Positions 7,283-50,693 of a stretch of DNA of 64,000 bases are shown here, in pieces. Under the pieces are notes generated by a model. That model ran no database searches. It was not told the DNA's origin and saw only the letters and a program-made list of their open reading frames with translations. Position 1 is the first letter of the stretch. Each line of letters starts with the position of its first letter. This DNA comes from a virus, in the IMG/VR virus record IMGVR_UViG_3300038393_002936. The stretch is one strand, 5' to 3'. The translations under genes were made by a program, and so were the position numbers.

Positions 7283-7531
7283 ATGCCTAAAGATGCGTTC
7301 AGTGAGGAGTTACGGCGACTCAGAAAGGAATCTGGCCTGACCCAGGAAGAGGTTTCGGTTGCCGCAGATGTGCCCATCTCAACGTATCGGAACTGGGAAG
7401 GTGGACACCGAAGACCTGAATTGGCGGCGGCTTACCGTCTGGCAAAGGCCCTCGGTGTCGAGGTGTCGGTTCTCGCAAAGCTCGCTAACGAACATCCACT
7501 TCGCAAAAAACGAGAGTCCGGAGAAGAATAG
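7283..7531 (+). CDS. XRE/Cro-CI family HTH regulator (candidate immunity repressor)
   Basis: LRRLRKESGLTQEEVS...STYRNWEGGHRRP...LAKALGV, a canonical HTH_3 pattern. Confidence 0.85.
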   Translation: MPKDAFSEELRRLRKESGLTQEEVSVAADVPISTYRNWEGGHRRPELAAAYRLAKALGVEVSVLAKLANEHPLRKKRESGEE

Positions 7532-7539
7532 GAACCGTT

Positions 7540-8265
7540 ATGGCCACCGCCCTCGAAACCACCTGTCCGACATGTCAGACATCCTTTTCGCTGACATCTC
7601 GAGTGGTCAGCCGTAACGTGGTCTGTCCTGTTTGCAGGTCCATCGTCAAGGCTCAGCCAGTCAGGGCGAAAGAATCCGCCACTTCCTCTTCAGGTCCCTC
7701 TCTTGCCAGACGGGCCGGAAAATGGACCCGAAATAATGCGGCGATTGCGGCGATTATCGTGAGTGTTGGTGGAACCTCATTACTTATCTTCATAATTGTT
7801 TTGTTTTTACAGAACCGCACGATATCTGCTGACTCGGGCATCCTGACAACTCAACCAACAGGCCGGGCAAAATACGACATCTCGGGTCGGACAGGCCCCG
7901 AGCCGGCGAAGGCAACCGAGAGCGAGGAAACATACAAAGCCTGGCTGAGCCGAAAAGTGCCATCTCGCTGGACCGTCCACCGAGTCACGCTTTCCGACAG
8001 ATACAACATCTCGAGCGCGACTTTTTTCACATACCTGGGTGGTGCCCGCTGCCGGTTTTCAGTTAGTCATATTAAGGCTTACGCTTGGGTCGTTACGGCC
8101 GAAGAGCAAGGTGTGGACGCACCACGGACCGCAGACATCACCTTCTTCCCCGATTACACTTACGATTACTTCTTCGCAACCGGACAAAACAAAAAATGGA
8201 CCGAAGAAATCACGCCACAGGCAAAAGAACTTGTGGAATATTTCCGTTCAGTTCTTCCGGACTAA
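7540..8265 (+). CDS. Zn-ribbon + single-TM membrane protein (possible superinfection-exclusion/lysogeny gene)
   Basis: CPTC...CPVC, then TM segment AAIAAIIVSVGGTSLLIFIIVLFL; directly behind the XRE gene. Confidence 0.6.
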   Translation: MATALETTCPTCQTSFSLTSRVVSRNVVCPVCRSIVKAQPVRAKESATSSSGPSLARRAGKWTRNNAAIAAIIVSVGGTSLLIFIIVLFLQNRTISADSGILTTQPTGRAKYDISGRTGPEPAKATESEETYKAWLSRKVPSRWTVHRVTLSDRYNISSATFFTYLGGARCRFSVSHIKAYAWVVTAEEQGVDAPRTADITFFPDYTYDYFFATGQNKKWTEEITPQAKELVEYFRSVLPD

Positions 8266-10209: not shown

Positions 10210-13200
10210 TTATCGCAGCGACCCCGAATCAGACGCAAGAGGAGCCGTCGCCTCGGGCATCCGCCGGTTGAATTCGCCGCCCATCATGCTGCGAATCTGG
10301 CGGTTGATTTCTGCTTTGACCGCGTCGGATACGCCCGGCTGGGCCACCGCACCGCCAACCAGATTCACGTCGATTTGCCCGGAATACTCGATGTGGGTCG
10401 GGATTTTGTCGAGCGACGTGACAAGCTTGTCCACTGTCGACTCGAACCTGCTGAACCCGCTATTCATGGTCGTAACCGAGTTGTTAAACCCGCTCATCCC
10501 CTCGTTAAATCGGGCCGCGGATTCGCCCATTTTGGCCGCCGCATCCGACGCCCGGCTCGACCCGTCCGAGCCGCCGGGGGACCCACCACGATTCAGTGAC
10601 GCCAACCCGGACGCCCCGAGCGACTGCATGCCGGCCCGGCTGACGACACCTTCGCCTTTTTCGAGCATGGCCAGCGTGCTGTCGTAGTTCGGAGAACCGC
10701 TGGTCACCAACCCACCCGCTGCGAACCGGTGAATTGGCTCGGTCGGAGCGGACACCAAAAAGTGCCGGTCGAGCGGGGGGTTATTCTTTGGACGAGGGGC
10801 CGGGGCGATGGGCAGTTTGCCCTTGGTCGGCCGCTTGAGGGCCGCTCGCTGGGCCTTCTTCCACGCGACATCAGCCGCCCGCTGGTCGGCTCGCTCGGCC
10901 ATCCGGTGGGCGACGTCGCGGTGGACATCCCAGAACCCACGGCCGAACTTTTGCATGAATAGGGCCTGGTCTTCGGCCTCGCGGTGTTGGAGGCGGGCGA
11001 CCACCCCGCCGTACACCTCATCCTCACCGGGAAGCCCTCCGGCACCCGCGTAGGCTTGTTGCTCGAGGAGCGAACCGACCTGACGGCGGGCGTTGACCTG
11101 CGCGAGGTTCCTCGCCATGTACAGCCCCAGGTCTTCAGCTTTCAATTTGCCCTTTGCGATTAATGCCCGACCTTGTTTCTCTAGCTGGTGGTGCATCCGG
11201 TCCAGCCCGGCTTCCCCGTTCGGGTTATAGCTTGTCTCGAAGATGGCCTTTTTGTTGGACTCGGCGAATTTAGTCCGAGCGTCTTTGATGGCTTCGCGGT
11301 AGAGCCGTTCTTCGGCCGGGGTCTTCGACTTTTTTAGAGCCTCTTTATAACGGGCAATGTCGCCCTCAATTTTGTCGGCTTGTTTGTGATTCCACCCACC
11401 CAGGAAAAATGTGTCGAACGGATTGGTCGCCCCCTCCGCTGCCGCTCCCCGCTGAGCGCGTTCCATGTCACGAGCTCGAGCTTCATCCTCTTTAGTGAGC
11501 TTTCGAGCCACCCCACCGGCAGCCAAATACTGGGGCACCACCCCGCCCCGGGCGAGTCCCAACCAGTCTGCGGCCGATACCATTCCTTGGCGGATGGTTT
11601 CGTAAGTGCCCATCGCCCCACGGATGATGCGTCTCTTACGGTCGTCCCCGTCCGCCACAAATCGACTGTCGTCCAGAGGGCCACGGGCGTTGTTTATCGC
11701 ATGGAGCAAAGGCCGGTTGGCAACTGATGACTTTGCATTAATAATATATTCATTTGGACTTAACATCGCTGGAACAACATCGCTGCCCCTGGGCGACCAG
11801 TTAATAAGTCCGCCCTGGGCCCTGTGCTGGGGCTGGGCCGGCAATTGTTTGTTCAAATCACTCAACATCGTCCCGAGGGCAGCTAGCTCCTTGTTGACGT
11901 TTCGTAGGTTCTCGTCGAGTTTGTCCAGCCCCTGAATGGACTCGGATTTTTTCTCAGGGTCCAAGGCCGACATAAGCTTAGCACGGTCTTCCCGGTTGAT
12001 GCCGGCGAGTCCTTCAGGGCTGATTTTTCCGAGCCGGAGTTCGCCGGCCGCCTTGTCCATTTCGTCCCGAGCCCACCCCTTCACCGTATCAACCCGCCGG
12101 AAAACGGCCCCGTGGAGCCGCTCGGCGGCGACATCATTCATCGTGTCCTGCCGTTCTTCGGGAGTCAATGACCGGCCGAGCTCTTTGGAACGGTGGCCCA
12201 ACTTCTCGTTGATGTCCATAAACAGGGAACCATTGGCGGCCTCGTCGATGGCGTTCGATTTGTACTCCGGTAGCAGGTCCTTGCCGATTTTGCTGCTGTC
12301 CAGAATCCTGGAGAAAATCAGTCTCCGTTCTTCCCGGCTCGCGTGCAACAGGTCGGTCTCGTTGCCGCCGGCCGACCGCTGCAAATATCCCCGGGCCTTT
12401 TCGCGGTCCTCCCCCGGTGCGTTCACCTCGTCAAGCTTCTCGAAATACTTTTTCAGGTCGGGGAAATATCGTTGAGCTTCCTTTACGCTCGCATCTGTTC
12501 CTTCAATACCCACCGCTCCGAGTACCTTTCTCAGATTGACCTGCTCATTGAGCCTGTTTTTTTCGAGGGCCTGCGAACTAATCATTGACTGGGTCTGCCG
12601 CCGTTGTTCGTAAACGGACTGGGTGGCGAGTCCGGAAACGACCGTGTCCCGGGCCCCCTGGACGAACTTCTTGACCCAGTCGTTCGCCTTGACTAGGTCC
12701 GCCGCGATGCCGCCCTGGGCCCGCACGCTTACCCCAGCAACCCGAGCATTTTCGTCAGTGAGTTTCTGTCGCCCCCGCCGCATCTCGGGCGGAACAATCC
12801 CCGTGTCCTCGAGCACGAAATTCCGCAGGCTGTCCCCAGTAAACCCGTTCTTGAATTGAGAGGGTCCAATGTCGTGAGAGGCCTGTATGAACAATCGCTT
12901 GTTTTCTTCCGACATCCTCTTAAACAACTCCGGGTCTTGGGCGACCTGAGCGGCCAGCGTCTGCCCTCGCCGCATTTTTTGGCGTTCTTCTGGACTCGCC
13001 ATAATAAATTTCTCCGCGAAACTCAAACGATTATCGCGGTCACTATTAATGGTGTTGAGTCGCTCCTGAATGGCGGCCCCCCTTTTTCCCGCGTCGGCCA
13101 GATTCCGAAGGGCTTCCTGCAAATTCTGGGTCCGCTGGACGGTTGCCTCGAACTCTCTCGACAACTGCGCAAAGCGTTCGGGATTACCTTCGGCCTTATC

Positions 13201-16200
13201 CTTGTTAGTTTTTATCGAGTCGAGACTTTGCCGTTCTTTCTCCAGCAAACTCGAAATACCGCTGACGTCCTCGTTACGGAGCCCAGTCCCCGCCAACAAC
13301 CGGGACTGTCGAGCTTCGTGCGGTGCGGTCAGGTCTTCGAGCGATAAAAACCGACTCGCGTCACCACCCCCCAGGCGTTCCGACCGGCTCACCGCCAGGG
13401 CCCGCGTGAGCCCCAGACGAGCTTCGGCAAGTCGGTCCTGTTCGGAGCCGACCGTGCTCGCGTTCTGCCGCACGGTGGATAGGCCGGTCGCATAGGCCAG
13501 GTTCGCCTCCTGGATGCGGCGGGCAATCTCCTGGCTGTAAGCCGCAGCCTTGGCGTTATCGACGTTCAGGTTTTTGGCCGCCCCCTGCGTATCGTGCCCG
13601 ATGTAGGGCAGGGCGTTCCCGCCGTGTTGCTGGTCCAGTTTCCGGACCTGAGAACTGACGTTCGCGATTGCCAGCCGCAGTTCCGGGTTCTCCTTCAGGG
13701 CCTTCTCCCGAGCCTCGTCCGACATTTCCGGCAGGAGAGATTCCCGCAGGCCCTTCTCGACCCGCGTGTGCGTCGTGTGCTCGGTCGAATTCCCTTCCCG
13801 GACGAGCTGGTCCAGAACGCTGGGCAGAATTCGGGCGATGTCGTCGGCGGCCTGACTGCTCCTGACCAGTCCCTTCCCTGCCGGACCGAGCATTCCCCCG
13901 ACCACGCCGAGGGCCTCGCGGAAGCCGCCCGGGTTGGGGGCCCCGAGAATACCCAGGTTGTTCGCGTAGTTCGGGGCACCCACGGGCGTGTGCCCGCCAA
14001 ACGCGAGCATTGGTAAATCTAGTTTGGTCTTAAAATCATTCAATGATGCAGAAACGGCATCGAACGCCACGACCAGCCGACCCGCCGAGTGCGCCTGCCG
14101 CTCGCTCACCACCCGGGCGTCCTCTACGGCCTTCTGGCCGGCGAAGTTTCGCTGGGCCTCACGCACGTCCTGTGCCATTTCGTTTAGGATTTTTGCCAGC
14201 GGCACATTGCGGATGTCGGCAACCACTCTCAGCAGTTCACCCCGGACGCCCTTATTGAGTTCGTCCACCAACTCCTCGGGCCTCGCCTCCGGCCGGGCCT
14301 TGGCCAGTCCGGTCGCTTCGGACGACAAAATACTGGCGAACCCACCCGCTTGGTTCGCGAGGGCTTTGCGGAGTTCGAGAGTCTGCGCCTTGGCCAACAC
14401 GTCCGAGTCCGGCGTTTTCCGCCAGAAACTGCTCGAATTTTCGAACGCCCGCGTGGTCGCGGCTGCTCGGACCTCCCGAATATCGCTGATGATGCCGTAC
14501 CGGTTGGCGCTCATCAGGCCTTCCTTGCCCTCGACCACCCGCCGCAAATTCTCGTTGAGGTGTTCGGTGGCGTTCGCCGCCTTGGCCTCGGCCAGGTTCT
14601 TCGAGGCGTCCTTTAGAGAGGTCGTAAACCCGTAAACCGCCCCGATGGCTCCGCCGATAGCCGCCCCCCACGGGCCGAACACCATCCCCACGCCGGCTCC
14701 CATCGCGCCGTACTGGAGGGTCCCACCCGTCACCGTTTGGTTCGTAAAAGAGGATTCGGCACCACTGTTGCCGACCGCCCTCGCCGCCGCTCCGTCTTCC
14801 GGGCTGAACGCCTGACCGATGAGCGGAGCGGCCATCATACCGGCGTAAGCCGCCCCCGCCCCGCCACTTCCCCGGATGCGACCCAGGGCACCCGACCCGA
14901 CGGACACGACTCCGGCCGCCTGTCGACTCAGCCAGCCCCCTTGTCCCAGTCGGTCGGCCAGCCGCCCGAACCGCCCCCGGCCACTTTCATCAATCGTGCC
15001 GCTGAACCAGCTCCGCCGGGTCGTTTCCGTAATCTGTTGACCCAGGTCGGCGAGCCCGACAACTTTCCCGTTCCTGTTTCGAATCACCTGGGCGTTCGTC
15101 CGGTACGCCTCTGCCGCCATTTCCTCGGCGATGGCCAGTCGTTCTTGGGCCTTGAGGGCGGGGGCCAGTGTCTGAAGCTGTCGACGAATCCCCGCGGCTA
15201 ACTCATTCTGGGCCTTTGAGACCTCTCGACCGGCTAGGTTGGCGGTCGCAGCGGGGGCCAGGCCGCCCAACCGGTGCATCTGGGCCGCATCCAGGGACGT
15301 AGCCCCGCGGGCATTGGCGATATCGGCGAATCCGAGTCCGGTCGGACTGAGCGGCCGGTCCCGGAACCGTTCCCCGGCCAGGAGGTCGTTCAGGCGGAGA
15401 CGGGCCCTGAAGGTATTGACGGCACCGTCACCGGGACCGTTCGGCGGGGCCACCGCCGGCAGACGCCCGGCCAAGAAATCGCGGACCGTCAGCGGGTTAT
15501 AGGCCACCGACCCGCCCGGCCGGTACTGAGTTTCACGGTGTCGGTACGGGGACGGTTCCCCCTCGACACTCAGGAGGGACGCAGCCGCGTTCGGCGTGAT
15601 GGGGCGGCCGGGAGCATTTCCGAAACCGTACGTGGGTCCGACCGGACCGGGTTCGCCCGGCCGGTATCCGGGGCGGTTCGTCGGGGACTGGCCGCGTCCG
15701 ATGGCCGGCATGAGGCCGTACGGGGCCGGGAACAAACCCGTTTTGGGAGAGGACGGGGATTCGACCCACGGGTCCGTCCGGAAGCCGATAGGGGACCCGG
15801 CGACCGGGTCCCGCAAATTTCTCATTTCCTGCCGGAATCGCCGTTCCACTTCCTTTTCGGCGTACCCCGGGATGACGGCCCCCCGGCCCCCGCTCAGGTG
15901 GACGTAGCCGGGCGGCAAAGACGGGACGTGAACGAGCGGGTACGACGGCCTGTCATTATTTGACGGAGCCGGACTTCCGGCAGGAGAGGGAGGGGCCGGC
16001 GGTGGGGGCGGAGGTAACGGCGGCTGGCTCCCCGAAGTGGCTGGACCAGTTCCGCCGGCCTTTCTCGCCTTCAGCCACGCCGTGAGGGAGGCCGGGTTGC
16101 CCAACTGGACGCCCGCCGTGTCCCCGGTCGTATACGCGGCAGTTCCCTTGAGGGCCGCCTGGCGAATTTCATTGGCCTTCGCCTTGCGACGGGCCACTTC

Positions 16201-19200
16201 CTCCTCGGTCCTGCGGACCTCGTCGGCACTCAGTCGCTGGAGGGCTTCCTCCGCGGCGGCCGGGGCATGCCGCTTGTGCGAATCGGGGTTGTTCTCGGCA
16301 CTGGTCAGGCTGACGCGACTGAGGTTTTTGCCGCCGAGCCGCCCGGCACCGTAGTGCTTGTTGAGTTCGTCCTTGACCTTTCGCTGGGCGGCCCGGAATA
16401 TCAAGGCATTAATATTGCCCTTCGAGGGGTCGTACCCGACCATCACGGTGCGGGCCGCGTCGTGGACGGCCCCCAGGGCGTCTTCCCGGCCGAACGTGGG
16501 GTGATTGCGGCTGAGGTTGGCCGCGAACCGCTCCAATAACCCAGGGTTCTTCTCCAGGTACTGGGTGAAAACGTCCCGCTGATTGTTAGTGAGGGCGGTC
16601 CGGGTTTTCGGCCGAGCCCGGCTCGCGAGTCGGCCCAGAACCGCCTGAATCTGGTTATCGCCCTTCCCGGTCAGGAAGTCCGCATGGGCTCGGGCGAATC
16701 CCTCCTTGTCCGAGTACAGGTACTGGGATTCTTTTTCGCTCAGGATGCGGCCCGCCTTCAGCATCTTTTCGCGGGTCGCCACCACGTTAGCCTGGGCCAC
16801 CTGCCTGGCACTGTCGTCACTGAGCGAGGCCGCCTTGCCGCCGCCCACCTTATAGTCGACCGCGTGCCCCAGCTCGTGGGCGAGCACCTCACGAAGTTCG
16901 TCGGCCGTCTTGATGCGGTCCTGGTTCAAGAACAGGTTCCCGCTCTTGTTGGCGTACCCGCCTCGGGCCACCTTCCCGGGCTGGACCGCCAGCGAGCGAT
17001 TGAAGAGAGCCAGGGTCTCTTGGTCCAACCCTCGGTGGTTAACAATAAGACGCTTGAACAGACTCTTATAGTCAATGCCGGTCTTTGTTTGAAACTCTTG
17101 GAGGATGCTGTTGATATTGGCTTCGGAGACGACCCCACTCGCCCCGGCACTAATCAAACCACCGTCGGCGAACCGGGGAAGTCGGCCCGTCCGGTTCATG
17201 TAGCGGACGCGGTTAATGCCTAGTCCTTGGACTGCGTTGCGGTTCAGTACGAACTCGCCGTCCTGCGCAAGAATTTCGACACTATCAACGCCCCGAGTTC
17301 CGCCCCGTACCTGCCCGCCGCCCGCGAACTTCCGCTGTGGTTTTAGGCCGAGTGGAGAACCTTGCACGACGGCGACTTGACTGCGTTCGGTCTGGCGCCG
17401 CTGGACGTATTCCAGTAGGTCGTCCTGGCCCACGCCCGTGGCGAGCGAGAGAGAAGACACGAGCTCGGCGACCCGCTCTCGTTTGCCGAGCGTCCGCCCC
17501 ACTTTGCGGCCGACCGCAGCCACACCGCGACCGACGAACCCGCCGAAAGCGTACCGCGGGAATCGACCCGTGCGGTTCAGTTCCTCGACCCGCCCCCGCC
17601 CCAGTCGGTCCACCGCGGCCTTCCGCAGCACATACTCGCCCTCCTGGGCCATGATGGGGACACTGTCGACGCCGGGGGTGCCGCCGTGGACCGGGCCGCC
17701 GGCCGCGAAGCGGCGGGTCGGAGCCCGCGACGACCCGTACAGTTCGGGGGTCAGCACACCCGTCGCAAACCGCCCGGCCCCGCCCATCAGCCGTCCGATA
17801 CCCAGGGCCGCGACTACCGGCAGGAGAGGGCCCAGGGCCTTGACGAGTTCCGAGGCCGCTGTGGCCGCCGTGGTGAGCCCGTCAGAAAAAGCCTTAAAAC
17901 CTTTTGACTGAATTAAATCATTAGCTAATTGCTGATAAGTTTCTTTTACCTTAGTTAATTTTGCGATAAAAGAATCTTGCCGAATTGCGGCGGCCGTCTC
18001 TATCGACGCCGCCCCCAGCCTGGCAACATTAAGTGCTTTTTGCGATTCCCCGAACTGCTGGATTAACGGCAGGACGCGAGACACTTGCCGGATGCCGCCC
18101 AGGTCTTCCACTATCTGGGCGTACCGGAAATCGGTGCTCCGGAGTTTACTGAGTCCTTCCGAAAGTCGCTGCACGGCTCGGAACTGGCCCACGAACTGGT
18201 CGGTCAAATCTTCCTGGCCGAGGGCGCGGGCTTCTTCCTTAGTATAACGAAGGTTAATTCCTAATTGTTTTAGATTCTCTATAGTATCAGAGCGTTGCAC
18301 ATAGGTGAATATGCTCCGGAGCCCGGTCGCGATTTGGTCGGCCGATTCCCGCGTGGTCGCTCTGACGCTTGTAAAAAGTGCCAACAGCTCGTTTAGTTGC
18401 CCTCCGGCCGTGGCAAACGCACCGCCGCTTTTTTGCACGGCAGTGATTAAATCCTGGCTCTCGACAGCGAAGGTCGCGGCGACCGCATTTACCGAGCCCA
18501 GTTGGTCTTTCAGCTTTTCGGTGTCCTTGCCGAACTGCTGAAAAATCGCAATCATCCCCTCCGTGGTTTTGCGGGCGTCCGCGAAGGACGGACTGGACAA
18601 GGCGAGGGCCAGTGTCTCAATAGCCTGAGCACTCTGTCGAGCATTAAGACCAGCTTGTACGAAACTCTCCGCCCCGGCCGCCAAATCGCGACTGGCCACG
18701 CCGTATGTGGTCGCCAGTCGGCCAATCTCGGCCCGCAGGCGAGACACGCCCCTCTGCCCATCGTCAGACACTTGCAATAGCTTATTCATTGCAAGGTCAA
18801 ATGAGATTGCTTCCTTTCCGACCGCTTTGAGGGCATTAACAGCCGCGAACATCCCACTGGTCGCCACGCTGAAGGCCACGAACCTGCGGCCCGCAAGGGA
18901 GACCTGTCGGCCGAAATTTGTCACCGAGTCAGAGGCCTCGGCGTAGGCCGCGGACGCCCGGCGGGCCGCTCCGGCAGAGGTGGTCAGGCTCGCGACAGAC
19001 GCCTGGGCCAGGGGGTTCACCCGGGCGTAGGCGGTCGCCATCTGGCTGATTCGACTGGTTGTCGATGCCGCTTCTCCACCAAGGCCTCGCATGGCCGCCC
19101 GCAAAGCATTCATGTTTTGGGCGAGCGCGGCAATTTCACTTTTGGCTCGGGGCGAAATTTCCAGGTCGATTTTTCCCGACAAGCCGCTAATTGCCCCTTG

Positions 19201-19272
19201 AATTTGCGAGCGAATGACAGAAGTCGCGCCGCGGGCGAGATTTAAGTTAATCTGGGAGTTAATCAAAAACAC
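10210..19272 (-). CDS. Tape measure protein, 3020 aa, multidomain
   Basis: TP901-type core (ESQDLITAVQKSGGAF...TRESADQIATGLRSI), Ala/Gly-rich helices, TM-like segments, repeated [FY]AxGG...DSV.AML..GE[YF]V modules; lies downstream of tail tube and chaperones. Confidence 0.9.
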   Translation of the reverse strand: MFLINSQINLNLARGATSVIRSQIQGAISGLSGKIDLEISPRAKSEIAALAQNMNALRAAMRGLGGEAASTTSRISQMATAYARVNPLAQASVASLTTSAGAARRASAAYAEASDSVTNFGRQVSLAGRRFVAFSVATSGMFAAVNALKAVGKEAISFDLAMNKLLQVSDDGQRGVSRLRAEIGRLATTYGVASRDLAAGAESFVQAGLNARQSAQAIETLALALSSPSFADARKTTEGMIAIFQQFGKDTEKLKDQLGSVNAVAATFAVESQDLITAVQKSGGAFATAGGQLNELLALFTSVRATTRESADQIATGLRSIFTYVQRSDTIENLKQLGINLRYTKEEARALGQEDLTDQFVGQFRAVQRLSEGLSKLRSTDFRYAQIVEDLGGIRQVSRVLPLIQQFGESQKALNVARLGAASIETAAAIRQDSFIAKLTKVKETYQQLANDLIQSKGFKAFSDGLTTAATAASELVKALGPLLPVVAALGIGRLMGGAGRFATGVLTPELYGSSRAPTRRFAAGGPVHGGTPGVDSVPIMAQEGEYVLRKAAVDRLGRGRVEELNRTGRFPRYAFGGFVGRGVAAVGRKVGRTLGKRERVAELVSSLSLATGVGQDDLLEYVQRRQTERSQVAVVQGSPLGLKPQRKFAGGGQVRGGTRGVDSVEILAQDGEFVLNRNAVQGLGINRVRYMNRTGRLPRFADGGLISAGASGVVSEANINSILQEFQTKTGIDYKSLFKRLIVNHRGLDQETLALFNRSLAVQPGKVARGGYANKSGNLFLNQDRIKTADELREVLAHELGHAVDYKVGGGKAASLSDDSARQVAQANVVATREKMLKAGRILSEKESQYLYSDKEGFARAHADFLTGKGDNQIQAVLGRLASRARPKTRTALTNNQRDVFTQYLEKNPGLLERFAANLSRNHPTFGREDALGAVHDAARTVMVGYDPSKGNINALIFRAAQRKVKDELNKHYGAGRLGGKNLSRVSLTSAENNPDSHKRHAPAAAEEALQRLSADEVRRTEEEVARRKAKANEIRQAALKGTAAYTTGDTAGVQLGNPASLTAWLKARKAGGTGPATSGSQPPLPPPPPPAPPSPAGSPAPSNNDRPSYPLVHVPSLPPGYVHLSGGRGAVIPGYAEKEVERRFRQEMRNLRDPVAGSPIGFRTDPWVESPSSPKTGLFPAPYGLMPAIGRGQSPTNRPGYRPGEPGPVGPTYGFGNAPGRPITPNAAASLLSVEGEPSPYRHRETQYRPGGSVAYNPLTVRDFLAGRLPAVAPPNGPGDGAVNTFRARLRLNDLLAGERFRDRPLSPTGLGFADIANARGATSLDAAQMHRLGGLAPAATANLAGREVSKAQNELAAGIRRQLQTLAPALKAQERLAIAEEMAAEAYRTNAQVIRNRNGKVVGLADLGQQITETTRRSWFSGTIDESGRGRFGRLADRLGQGGWLSRQAAGVVSVGSGALGRIRGSGGAGAAYAGMMAAPLIGQAFSPEDGAAARAVGNSGAESSFTNQTVTGGTLQYGAMGAGVGMVFGPWGAAIGGAIGAVYGFTTSLKDASKNLAEAKAANATEHLNENLRRVVEGKEGLMSANRYGIISDIREVRAAATTRAFENSSSFWRKTPDSDVLAKAQTLELRKALANQAGGFASILSSEATGLAKARPEARPEELVDELNKGVRGELLRVVADIRNVPLAKILNEMAQDVREAQRNFAGQKAVEDARVVSERQAHSAGRLVVAFDAVSASLNDFKTKLDLPMLAFGGHTPVGAPNYANNLGILGAPNPGGFREALGVVGGMLGPAGKGLVRSSQAADDIARILPSVLDQLVREGNSTEHTTHTRVEKGLRESLLPEMSDEAREKALKENPELRLAIANVSSQVRKLDQQHGGNALPYIGHDTQGAAKNLNVDNAKAAAYSQEIARRIQEANLAYATGLSTVRQNASTVGSEQDRLAEARLGLTRALAVSRSERLGGGDASRFLSLEDLTAPHEARQSRLLAGTGLRNEDVSGISSLLEKERQSLDSIKTNKDKAEGNPERFAQLSREFEATVQRTQNLQEALRNLADAGKRGAAIQERLNTINSDRDNRLSFAEKFIMASPEERQKMRRGQTLAAQVAQDPELFKRMSEENKRLFIQASHDIGPSQFKNGFTGDSLRNFVLEDTGIVPPEMRRGRQKLTDENARVAGVSVRAQGGIAADLVKANDWVKKFVQGARDTVVSGLATQSVYEQRRQTQSMISSQALEKNRLNEQVNLRKVLGAVGIEGTDASVKEAQRYFPDLKKYFEKLDEVNAPGEDREKARGYLQRSAGGNETDLLHASREERRLIFSRILDSSKIGKDLLPEYKSNAIDEAANGSLFMDINEKLGHRSKELGRSLTPEERQDTMNDVAAERLHGAVFRRVDTVKGWARDEMDKAAGELRLGKISPEGLAGINREDRAKLMSALDPEKKSESIQGLDKLDENLRNVNKELAALGTMLSDLNKQLPAQPQHRAQGGLINWSPRGSDVVPAMLSPNEYIINAKSSVANRPLLHAINNARGPLDDSRFVADGDDRKRRIIRGAMGTYETIRQGMVSAADWLGLARGGVVPQYLAAGGVARKLTKEDEARARDMERAQRGAAAEGATNPFDTFFLGGWNHKQADKIEGDIARYKEALKKSKTPAEERLYREAIKDARTKFAESNKKAIFETSYNPNGEAGLDRMHHQLEKQGRALIAKGKLKAEDLGLYMARNLAQVNARRQVGSLLEQQAYAGAGGLPGEDEVYGGVVARLQHREAEDQALFMQKFGRGFWDVHRDVAHRMAERADQRAADVAWKKAQRAALKRPTKGKLPIAPAPRPKNNPPLDRHFLVSAPTEPIHRFAAGGLVTSGSPNYDSTLAMLEKGEGVVSRAGMQSLGASGLASLNRGGSPGGSDGSSRASDAAAKMGESAARFNEGMSGFNNSVTTMNSGFSRFESTVDKLVTSLDKIPTHIEYSGQIDVNLVGGAVAQPGVSDAVKAEINRQIRSMMGGEFNRRMPEATAPLASDSGSLR

Positions 19273-19454: not shown

Positions 19455-20438
19455 ATGAGCGAAGTCGAAGCGAAACCCCTTGGTGAGGGGGACCGGTTTG
19501 GATTTTGGGCGGTAATCAAAAGGGACACAAAAAGGAATGGGAAGTGGCATTATATTTGCCGCTGCGGCAAATGCGAAGGGCTTGTTTCGGTACTGAAACG
19601 CTCTTTGCTTCTCAGCAAGAGCACGCAGTGCGCCGCATGTGCCCAAAAAGAAAGGACGAAATACAAAAGAGAGATTCAATCCGGGGAAATGTTTGGCTCG
19701 TGGAAGGTGCTGCGTATCCACTCAAAGGATGACACGTCCAGGGTTAAATATGTATGCCTTTGCACAAAATGCAATAGAGAATTTATTATCTCGTGGTCAT
19801 CTCTTACTTACAAAAAAAGCGAGGCCTGTCGTGGATGCCAAAACAAAGAAAAAATTTGCGATAATAACAAAATACCACCAGGAACAAAGTTTGGCTTCTG
19901 GGAAGCCCTCTATTTCGATAATTCACAAAAGGGGAATAGATATATTTGCAAGTGTCATCGGTGCCAAAGCGAGCATTCAATTCCAGCTACTTACTTGAGA
20001 AATAACAGAACCAAACAGTGCGAAACATGCTACAAAAGAAAAAAGGGGAAATTGAGCTCAAAATGGACCGGATATCAAGACTTGTCAGGCAGTATGTTCG
20101 GAAGGTATAAAGCAGGGGCTAAATGGCGACAAATTGAATTCAACATAACAATTGAATACGCATGGGGCCTATTCGTTAAGCAAAATGCCCGCTGCGCAAT
20201 TAGCGGCGTACAACTTCATATTAAGCCGAGTGAAAACAACGAGGTAACCGCCTCGCTAGACAGAATCGACTCTGCCGCCGGATACATCGTCGGGAATCTC
20301 CAATGGATACATAAAAAATTAAATGCCATGAAAAGTGACTACTCAATTGAAGAGTTTATAAGTTGGTGTCATTTAGTCGCCGAATCTAACCCTCGGCCAA
20401 GTCAAAAACTCGCGACCGAACCAACAACCGCTGCCTGA
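19455..20438 (+). CDS. Free-standing HNH-type homing endonuclease
   Basis: Three G..FG.W...Y.C.C..C repeats plus CAISG...SLDRIDS..GY..GNLQW.H..N.MK; AT-rich; antisense to the late operon. Confidence 0.8.
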   Translation: MSEVEAKPLGEGDRFGFWAVIKRDTKRNGKWHYICRCGKCEGLVSVLKRSLLLSKSTQCAACAQKERTKYKREIQSGEMFGSWKVLRIHSKDDTSRVKYVCLCTKCNREFIISWSSLTYKKSEACRGCQNKEKICDNNKIPPGTKFGFWEALYFDNSQKGNRYICKCHRCQSEHSIPATYLRNNRTKQCETCYKRKKGKLSSKWTGYQDLSGSMFGRYKAGAKWRQIEFNITIEYAWGLFVKQNARCAISGVQLHIKPSENNEVTASLDRIDSAAGYIVGNLQWIHKKLNAMKSDYSIEEFISWCHLVAESNPRPSQKLATEPTTAA

Positions 20439-38245: not shown

Positions 38246-39095
38246 TATCAGATACTACCTCGGCATCACCGAGCCCGACCGTGTCCGGAGTGAGGATGGG
38301 CCTATCGTAACTAGAGTCGCCGTACTGATGGTGTGCCGATAGGCGGTTGAGTTCTCCCGCGGTGGCCCGTCGCATGAGCTCGATATAACGGTCCCCCTCC
38401 TGCCGGACTGATTCTTCCTGGAGGCTCCGAAGGAGCCCCAAGAAGTCCATTTTGCCGCTCTCAATCCGGTCAACCCGCTGTTGACGGGTCGCCTTGAGGG
38501 CCTCCATCAATTTTTGGTGCTTCTCTTCCAATTTCACATATTCGACGGTCAGGTCCGCCTGTAGGCTGTTCGCCTTTTCGAGCAGTTCGTCCAAAATTTG
38601 CAATTTCCGGACATCTTCGTCGCTGTCGGGCAGATTGAATTTCTGGAGCTTCAATAGCTGTTCGCGTGTGACCTCGAGCCGCTCGATTTCCCGCCCGACC
38701 CGCCGCTGTTTGACCGCGTTCCGGTGTTTGAGCAGGTCCAGTTTGATGACCTTGAAGACCTGGTTCTCTTCGGTCGGAAGGACCTTGTCCTCGCTGAACT
38801 GGTCCATGAGGGCGACGTACTGTTCCTCGAAGTACGCCAGTTCGTCCTTTTCGAACTCGGCCACCAACTGTTTCCAAGCCGCGCTCTGTTTGAGCCCGAG
38901 CCGGATACTGGACTGGGTTTCGGGTTCGGGCGGACGAGGAGTCGCCGGCTTGGCGCTCATCGCCTTGAGGACGACGTTGACGGACCGGTTAAGCTTGCCC
39001 GCGATATCCTGCGGGGTCATCCGGCCGGCGTTCGCCTCGATGAAGGCGACCTCGGCGTTGCTTAAGCGTCCGCTTTTGGTGGGTTGCTTGGGCAC
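38232..39095 (-). CDS. HTH + coiled-coil protein (possible terminase small subunit)
   Basis: MTPQDIAGKLNRS HTH and a long coiled coil; upstream of terL. Confidence 0.45.
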   Translation of the reverse strand: MPKQPTKSGRLSNAEVAFIEANAGRMTPQDIAGKLNRSVNVVLKAMSAKPATPRPPEPETQSSIRLGLKQSAAWKQLVAEFEKDELAYFEEQYVALMDQFSEDKVLPTEENQVFKVIKLDLLKHRNAVKQRRVGREIERLEVTREQLLKLQKFNLPDSDEDVRKLQILDELLEKANSLQADLTVEYVKLEEKHQKLMEALKATRQQRVDRIESGKMDFLGLLRSLQEESVRQEGDRYIELMRRATAGELNRLSAHHQYGDSSYDRPILTPDTVGLGDAEVVSDNEAH

Positions 39096-39676
39096 GCGAT
39101 GACTCTCACAGCGGCTTCGACCTTTTTCCGGCGACTGGTCGGCAGCCGCTCACCGGCCAACATTCGCAAATAATCCGAGCGAAGCGTGGGGTCGAGTTCC
39201 CGGTCGATTCTGCTACGCAGTTCGTCGAACGAGGCCAGTTCGGCGGCCCTATCATCGGCCTTGAGCCCGCTCTCGCGGTCGTCGGCAATCCCGTCCAGCG
39301 AAAGCGGCCGGGTCAGGTTGGCCTTGGTCGCGTTCCGCTTCTTCCAGGCCAGGTACTTGCGGCAGACCTTGCGGTCCGCGTGCTCGCTTTCGCGACCCTG
39401 GTGGCACAAGTTACACGGCGGGTCGGTCCGCCTATAATTATCACGCTTGAAGTTAATAAGCCGGCGAACGGCGTGTGTGTACAGATACTTTTCGAGCGGC
39501 CGGGATGGGTCGTACTTGCCTTTGGCAAGCAGTTCTAAGCAGAACACTCGTGTTTCCTGCCGGACGTCTTCGGCCTCCAGGTATCCAAACACGAACTTGT
39601 CGGACGCCTGGTTAACAACCTTCTCGATGGCCTCGAGGACACTTGCCTCGGTGTGGCCGGGCGGAATTTCCATCAC
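39062..39676 (-). CDS. Phage-encoded sigma-70/ECF-like factor (candidate late sigma)
   Basis: EAEDVRQE...KYDPSRPLEKYLYTHAVRRLINFKRD region-2 pattern; inserted Cys/His loop; short C-terminal region. Confidence 0.75.
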   Translation of the reverse strand: MMEIPPGHTEASVLEAIEKVVNQASDKFVFGYLEAEDVRQETRVFCLELLAKGKYDPSRPLEKYLYTHAVRRLINFKRDNYRRTDPPCNLCHQGRESEHADRKVCRKYLAWKKRNATKANLTRPLSLDGIADDRESGLKADDRAAELASFDELRSRIDRELDPTLRSDYLRMLAGERLPTSRRKKVEAAVRVIACPSNPPKADA

Positions 39677-50664: not shown

Positions 50665-50693
50665 TTGACAATCGCTGTTATTTACACTATTTT
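50665..50693 (+). promoter_or_regulatory. Sigma70-like early promoter (copy 2)
   Basis: TTGACA-atcgctgttatttacac-TATTTT. Confidence 0.65.

What the first reader, a model, noticed from the sequence alone, without database searches (positions are those of the whole stretch)
16190..16575. Sigma-factor-like domain embedded in the tape measure protein
Seen: TMP segment FTQYLEKNPGLLERFAANLSRNHPTFGREDALGAVHDAARTVMVGYDPSKGNINALIFRAAQRKVKDELNK...KNLSRVSL. It follows the sigma70 region-2 pattern (L.....A......ED.......A......[FY]DP.[KR]G.......R...D.L). It also parallels the phage's own sigma at 39062-39676 (AEDVRQE...YDPSRP...RRLINFKR...NLTRPLSL). No region-4 HTH follows; a poly-Pro linker does. Established: tape measure proteins are ejected into the cell at infection. 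Inference: the virion may deliver a sigma-like module, either to start early transcription or to compete for host RNA polymerase core.
Basis: partly seen in the sequence, partly recalled or inferred. Interest (0 to 1): 0.85.

Follow-up and report, generated by a model that had tools for sequence, protein, structure and literature searches.

The report
Sigma domain inside phage tape measure
A family of large uncultured phages carries the RNA-polymerase-gripping half of a sigma factor built into the tail ruler protein that is pushed into the cell at infection, so the virus particle may deliver a transcription factor to take over the host polymerase before any phage gene is read; this was not found described, and the function is untested.

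Summary
Confirmed, and broader than reported. Residues 893-976 (16345-16596, minus strand) of a 3020-aa tape measure protein (TMP) form a sigma-70 domain-2 fold. AlphaFold pLDDT is 81-90; 22 of the top 23 structural matches are sigma factors. The domain recurs in 27 of 222 related TMPs (about 23 firm), once each, always between the AxGG repeats and the membrane segment. Two pass Pfam's Sigma70_r2 cut-off, and a profile built only from TMP segments retrieves only sigma factors from the PDB. Region 4 is missing; about nine relatives have a SAP-type DNA-binding domain there. One relative also encodes a free-standing sigma2-SAP paralog. The domain is not a copy of the phage's own late sigma. Best reading: a virion-delivered, gp55-like half-sigma that docks on host RNA polymerase to start early transcription (0.4); a decoy is the main rival (0.25). 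This copy is degenerate at core-binding and melting positions, and binding is untested. Cargo-bearing TMPs are known (P23-45 virion RNA polymerase; earlier scan notes on other DNA), but I found no paper or scan note on sigma cargo. No close cultured phage; host possibly Gemmataceae.

The parts
10210..19272 (-). Tape measure protein, 3020 aa, modular cargo-bearing
   Evidence: ORF; Pfam PF10145 and PHROG tape-measure families
18172..18729 (-). PhageMin_Tail (TP901-type TMP) domain, aa 182-367
   Evidence: Pfam E 4e-18
17539..17709 (-). AxGG repeat 1 (cassette boundary motif), aa 522-578
   Evidence: sister strains differ only upstream of it
17158..17328 (-). AxGG repeat 2, aa 649-705
16642..17112 (-). 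Zincin-like metallopeptidase with HExxH (16864-16878), aa 721-877
   Evidence: weak Pfam M76/M48/SprT and PHROG protease hits; related domain in 57 of 222 TMPs; activity untested
16345..16596 (-). Sigma-70 domain-2-like four-helix domain, aa 893-976 (the finding)
16132..16344 (-). Flexible linker then long helix, aa 977-1047, where sigma region 3.2 and 4.1 would lie; no HTH or SAP detected in this copy
   Evidence: model; Pfam Sigma70_ECF weak hit runs into it; SAP profile negative
15943..16023 (-). Proline-rich linker, aa 1084-1110
   Evidence: sequence; similar Pro-rich tracts follow the cassette in relatives
14455..14910 (-). Conserved Gly-rich hydrophobic segment, probable membrane channel part, aa 1455-1606
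   Evidence: family HMM; hydropathy peak at aa 1528; Gly-zipper hit in relative P0009
11653..11823 (-). AxGG repeat 3
10558..10725 (-). AxGG repeat 4
39062..39676 (-). Stand-alone phage sigma (204 aa), probably late; not the source of the TMP domain
   Evidence: Pfam Sigma70_r2 E 6e-4; same strand, upstream of terminase and portal; separate group in tree

Best explanation
A virion-delivered half-sigma. The TMP is built as conserved ruler domain, AxGG repeats, exchangeable cargo, Pro linker, membrane segment. SHOWN: one cargo slot holds a sigma domain 2 in this phage and many relatives. FROM ESTABLISHED KNOWLEDGE: TMPs leave the tail at infection, and sigma domain 2 alone carries the main core-binding and -10 functions (T4 gp55). 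INFERRED: the N-terminal cargo region reaches the cytoplasm, tethered at the pore or released by the neighbouring zincin; the sigma2 docks on the beta-prime clamp helices of host RNA polymerase and, with the SAP-type or helical segment standing in for region 4 as a DNA tether, starts pre-early transcription on the entering DNA. This copy may be a weak version.
For: Fold and profile identity as sigma2. One copy per TMP in 27 of 222, always upstream of the membrane segment, the position of the virion RNA polymerase in P23-45 gp96 (PMC10770324). Family keeps structural and melting-side positions: F419-equivalent 23/28, Y430 18/28, F427 14/28, D403 17/28. A SAP-like DNA-binding domain sits 39-93 aa after sigma2 in about nine members, one above Pfam's cut-off. 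A free-standing sigma2-SAP gene passing Pfam Sigma70_r2 lies in one relative's genome and is 33% identical to its own TMP cassette over 186 aa, like the virion/non-virion pair of P23-45. gp55 works with similarity to sigma70 confined to domain 2 (PMC2988020).
Against: This copy has non-canonical residues at key positions: Q406 is G (or H in the alternative register), F427 is I, Y430 is L, and no SAP or HTH follows. The domain evolves fast (39-49% identity between TMP pairs whose N-terminal domains are 77-92% identical) and is undetected in 25 of 47 TMPs of the same clade. No dedicated early promoter motif was found. A TMP is unfolded in the tail, so refolding and membrane topology are assumed.
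Confidence: 0.4

Rival explanations
1. Decoy or competitor: the delivered sigma2 binds the clamp helices (or a host anti-sigma factor) without opening promoters, displacing host sigmas and damping stress or defence transcription in the first minutes.
For: No region 4; melting aromatics lost in this copy while the fold is kept; fast evolution fits an arms race; fellow cargo in relatives is conflict-type, such as ADP-ribosyltransferases; candidate Planctomycete hosts carry 60-140 sigma2 matches per genome.
Against: A virion delivers only a few TMP copies against thousands of polymerases (own knowledge), a poor ratio for titration but enough for initiation on one genome; core-binding residues are no better kept than melting ones; a DNA-binding SAP partner is not needed for a decoy.
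Confidence: 0.25
2. Repurposed DNA-handling module: sigma2 (single-strand grip) plus SAP bind the entering DNA to pilot or shield it, with no polymerase contact.
For: SAP follows sigma2 in about nine members; Q406 and E407 equivalents are poorly kept; position next to the membrane segment.
Against: This copy lacks a detectable SAP and the aromatics; the free-standing paralog looks like a transcription factor.
Confidence: 0.15
3. Decaying passenger: an old in-frame capture of a phage sigma gene, tolerated as helical spacer that adds tail length.
For: Among the fastest-changing parts of the TMP; patchy (at least 10 forced gains or losses); more eroded look-alikes seen by eye in the same slot; dN/dS uninformative.
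Against: Still alignable and foldable where silent sites are saturated; glycine/small residue 28/28 and hydrophobic core 25/28 kept; same slot across deep branches; always one copy.
Confidence: 0.16
4. Chance resemblance of a generic helical bundle.
For: Single-sequence scores are weak; Z about 8 is common for helical bundles and an arsenate reductase N-domain ties for first; Foldseek E 0.1.
Against: Relatives in the same slot pass Pfam's cut-off (P0093 33.4 bits, P0144 26.6); TMP-only profile finds 18 of 18 sigma factors in the PDB; held-out test positive.
Confidence: 0.04

Closest known systems
Thermus phage P23-45 gp96, tape-measure-fused virion RNA polymerase (PMC10770324)
   Same: Transcription module in the N-terminal part of a giant TMP that also has metallopeptidase and membrane domains; a non-virion paralog exists (here in one relative).
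   Different: Cargo is an 84-aa sigma domain that needs the host enzyme, not a polymerase; no polymerase motif in the window; TMP unrelated at detectable level; function untested.
Polyvalent proteins of phages and conjugative elements (Iyer et al. 2017, PMC5512222)
   Same: Large injected proteins that string together zincin metallopeptidase, ADP-ribosyltransferase and other conflict domains.
   Different: The main text has no occurrence of 'sigma' or 'tape measure'; here the scaffold is a TP901-type TMP with AxGG boundaries.
T4 gp55 with gp33, a split sigma (PMC2988020)
   Same: Similarity to sigma70 confined to domain 2; region 4 replaced by another part. gp55 is retrieved by the TMP profile (E 0.1).
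   Different: gp55 is a free late protein made in the cell; here the domain is virion-borne, fused, and much more divergent.
Group 3 and ECF sigma-70 factors (FliA, SigB, SigH, SigE)
   Same: Domain-2 fold and helix 2.2-2.4 pattern.
   Different: No region 4 HTH; SAP-like domain in some members; non-canonical core-binding residues.

Membership tests
Sigma-70 domain 2 (PF04542 / fold) | Four-helix sigma2 fold | tested here: met
   Model pLDDT 81-90, four helices; 22 of top 23 matches sigma, SigH Z 8.3 rmsd 2.4 over 78
Sigma-70 domain 2 (PF04542 / fold) | Pfam gathering score for this copy | tested here: not met
   No Sigma70_r2 hit; Sigma70_ECF 15 bits against 21.1. Relatives P0093 and P0144 pass
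Sigma-70 domain 2 (PF04542 / fold) | Homology through family profile | tested here: met
   Held-out score E 4e-4; family profile retrieves only sigma factors, FliA E 5e-6
Complete sigma-70 factor | Region 4 helix-turn-helix for the -35 element | tested here: not met
   No Pfam region-4 hit; model gives a long helix and a short helix
Complete sigma-70 factor | Region 2.2 core-binding residues (sigma70 D403, Q406, E407; numbering from own knowledge) | tested here: inconclusive
   Two registers possible; D kept with Q to G and E to A, or D to G, Q to H, E to D
Complete sigma-70 factor | Region 2.3 melting aromatics | tested here: not met
   This copy: F419 kept as Y; F427 I, Y430 L, W433 R, W434 A. 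Family keeps F427 14/28, Y430 18/28; ECF and group 3 sigmas also lack the tryptophans
Complete sigma-70 factor | Binds core and directs promoter-specific initiation | not testable with these tools
   Needs biochemistry
TP901-type tape measure protein | PhageMin_Tail domain, long helical protein in the virion gene region | tested here: met
Polyvalent protein (Iyer 2017) | Several disparate domains including a HExxH zincin in one large polypeptide | tested here: met
   Zincin motif plus sigma2 here; ADP-ribosyltransferases in relatives
Polyvalent protein (Iyer 2017) | Injected with the DNA | not testable with these tools
   Inferred from TMP biology
TMP-fused virion RNA polymerase (P23-45 type) | Two-barrel polymerase with metal-binding aspartate motif | tested here: not met
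   Motif absent from all window ORFs

The most novel reading that the evidence does not exclude
A widespread lineage of large, probably Planctomycete-infecting phages injects a region-4-less sigma factor as part of its tape measure protein, which reprogrammes host RNA polymerase for pre-early transcription, with a SAP domain replacing region 4 in some members: a virion-delivered sigma factor.
Probability: 0.4. Interest if true: 0.9.

Novelty: new variant of a known kind. Interest (0 to 1): 0.74.

Why it matters
Known ways to start phage transcription are strong host-sigma promoters, an injected polymerase (N4, crAss, phiKZ, P23-45) or an injected modifying enzyme (T4 Alt). An injected sigma domain would be a further, far smaller solution, and a natural test of how little of sigma is needed and of whether a SAP domain can replace region 4. 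Even as a decoy it would be a new class of virion-borne polymerase inhibitor. The domain is small, soluble-looking and comes as a natural series from near-canonical to eroded, so it can be tested without culturing the phage.

Tried and rejected
Complex prediction of the domain with Gemmataceae beta-prime clamp helices: no verdict (0.16 against a mark of 0.32); not used as evidence either way. phmmer of the segment against 1.8 billion representatives: only self and three spurious repeat proteins. Pattern scans of viral contigs with the segment or with the free-standing paralog: nothing. Derivation from the phage's own sigma: rejected (the tree has few columns and long branches, so only the separation is used). 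P0017 candidate: coiled coil, rejected. Four alignment rows (P0050, P0084, L007, P0069) fail leave-one-out and are doubtful. Designed repeat proteins at the top are sums of weak repeat hits. dN/dS: silent sites saturated or compressed by GC bias, uninformative. Early promoter search: sigma70-type sites at chance level in 44-64 kb (9 against 7.3); no dedicated motif. Foldseek gave no match under E 0.001. Literature searches for sigma domains in TMPs found nothing; the library lacks most subscription papers. No cultured phage has a close TMP (best 23.5%).
Full report
Setting. The finding lies in a 3020-aa ORF at 10210-19272 on the minus strand. It is a TP901-type tape measure protein (TMP): Pfam PhageMin_Tail at aa 182-367, E 4e-18, and many PHROG tape-measure families. 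Terminase and portal lie on the same strand further upstream. The protein is on record on a contig of 165,690 bases. No cultured phage has a close TMP. The nearest TMPs in genome bins are in Gemmataceae records, a weak hint at the host.

Is the domain real? By itself the segment is borderline: Pfam Sigma70_ECF E 0.024, no true relatives by phmmer. Three further lines agree. Language-model features place it with Sigma70_r2 clusters at 0.95. AlphaFold folds aa 893-976 as four helices, at about 80 pLDDT from the single sequence and 81-90 with six relatives. Structural search returns sigma domain 2 in 22 of the top 23 rows, with SigH Z 8.3, rmsd 2.4 over 78 residues; an arsenate reductase N-domain ties for first, and Z near 8 is not decisive for helical bundles. 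The decisive evidence came from relatives.

A family feature. I collected 270 distinct related TMP sequences. An HMM made only from stand-alone sigmas found sigma2 segments in several of them above the reversed-sequence null. P0093 (33.4 bits) and P0144 (26.6 bits) pass Pfam's Sigma70_r2 cut-off of 24, and L091 reaches E 1e-4. A model iterated on TMP segments with this copy held out scores it at E 0.001-0.005 and 4e-4 in leave-one-out. A profile built from TMP segments alone retrieves 18 PDB sequences at E up to 1, all sigma factors, led by FliA at 5e-6 and including T4 gp55. The domain is detected in 27 of 222 TMPs of 1600 aa or more; four fail leave-one-out, so about 23 are firm. In the clade holding this phage, 22 of 47 have it, and more eroded look-alikes can be seen by eye in the same slot (not significant).

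Anatomy. In all 27 there is one copy, downstream of the ruler domain and an AxGG repeat and upstream of the conserved hydrophobic segment. Here the order is ruler domain, two AxGG repeats, HExxH zincin (aa 721-877), sigma2, linker, long helix, Pro-rich tract, membrane segment. Other cargo in the same region of relatives includes zincins (57 of 222) and ADP-ribosyltransferases. Sister strains swap sequence just before the first repeat, which fits modular exchange. No region-4 HTH follows in this copy. In about nine relatives a SAP-like domain lies 39-93 aa after sigma2, where region 4 would be (Pfam SAP above cut-off in P0093). It was not detected here.

A free-standing paralog. The phage that encodes TMP P0121 also encodes a 244-aa protein, HTH + sigma2 + SAP-like, which passes Pfam Sigma70_r2, is 33% identical to its own TMP cassette over 186 aa, and matches the family profile at probability 96%. 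So the cassette also exists as an independent protein. This mirrors P23-45, where a TMP-fused virion polymerase and a non-virion polymerase arose by duplication (PMC10770324). It is one case.

Not the phage's own sigma. The 204-aa sigma at 39062-39676 aligns at E 0.54, scores 6.5 bits against the family profile while other sigmas reach 20-23, and its family separates from the TMP domains in a tree (few columns, long branches).

State of the functional residues. Across 28 domains the structural positions hold (small residue 28/28, hydrophobic 25/28, F419-equivalent 23/28). D403 is kept in 17, Y430 in 18, F427 in 14; the tryptophans are absent, as in ECF and group 3 sigmas (sigma70 numbering from own knowledge). 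This copy is among the more eroded: F427 is I, Y430 is L, and in either possible register of helix 2.2 at least one canonical core-binding residue is replaced. The domain diverges fast: 39-49% identity between pairs with 77-92% identical N-terminal domains, yet it stays alignable where silent sites are saturated. That fits an arms race or relaxed constraint; I could not tell which.

Mechanism. Domain 2 gives sigma its main core-binding and -10 functions, and T4 gp55 works with similarity confined to it (PMC2988020). TMPs are thought to be injected into the envelope, and P23-45 uses the N-terminal part of its TMP for pre-early transcription. I therefore favour a delivered half-sigma that recruits host polymerase to the entering genome (0.4). 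A few molecules suffice for that but hardly for titrating the cell's polymerase, which weighs against a pure decoy (0.25). DNA handling (0.15), a decaying passenger (0.16) and chance (0.04) remain. Shown: fold, family, position, companion domains, paralog. Inferred: ejection, cytoplasmic location, cleavage, polymerase binding, initiation.

Novelty. Cargo-bearing TMPs and polyvalent proteins are known kinds, and earlier scan notes describe AxGG-fenced enzyme cargo in a related TMP and polymerases in others. The polyvalent-protein paper has no 'sigma' or 'tape measure' in its main text, and literature and scan searches found no sigma cargo, within the limits of an open-access library. I file it as a new variant of a known kind: a sigma domain-2 homolog, not a complete sigma factor. 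Interest 0.74.

Noticed in passing
L247:5388-6122 (-): Free-standing 244-aa protein, N-terminal HTH + sigma2 + linker + SAP-like, paralog of the cassette in the same phage's TMP; neighbours at 7356-8093 and 1250-1870 carry SAP/Rho_N-type domains.
   Followed up: yes
window 17760-19272 (TMP aa 1-504): Sister strains P0004 and P0160 differ from this TMP at about 50 positions in aa 1-504 and are identical or one residue off afterwards: a recombination junction just before the first AxGG repeat.
   Followed up: partly
P0009 (L161:10001-21589) and several TMPs: Related TMPs carry ADP-ribosyltransferase domains (three in P0009) and up to three zincins between AxGG repeats.
   Followed up: partly
window 39062-39676: The stand-alone sigma has a Cys-rich insert after domain 2 and a reduced C-terminal part; a family of it is conserved in most related phages.
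   Followed up: partly
L162, L190, L194, L211: A second small (160-180 aa) sigma family in some relatives scores best among the phage sigmas first collected against the TMP sigma2 profile.
   Followed up: partly
whole window: The 7-mer TCCGGCA is the most over-represented word (64 against 33 expected), matching earlier notes on a genome-wide motif; no link to the sigma domain was found.
   Followed up: no
window 19455-20438 (+): AT-rich, Cys-rich 327-aa ORF on the opposite strand directly upstream of the TMP, resembling an HNH-type homing endonuclease (by eye).
   Followed up: no
L251:7544-7985: In a sister contig an HTH_3 gene and a Fic-domain gene follow the TMP directly.
   Followed up: no
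window 50665-50693 (+): Best sigma70-type promoter candidate (perfect -35 hexamer) in the small-gene region.
   Followed up: no
L170-L173, P0051: Closest TMPs in genome bins lie in Gemmataceae, Gemmata and Urbifossiella records (49-56% identity), hinting at a Planctomycete host; more distant ones are binned into many phyla, so binning is weak evidence.
   Followed up: partly
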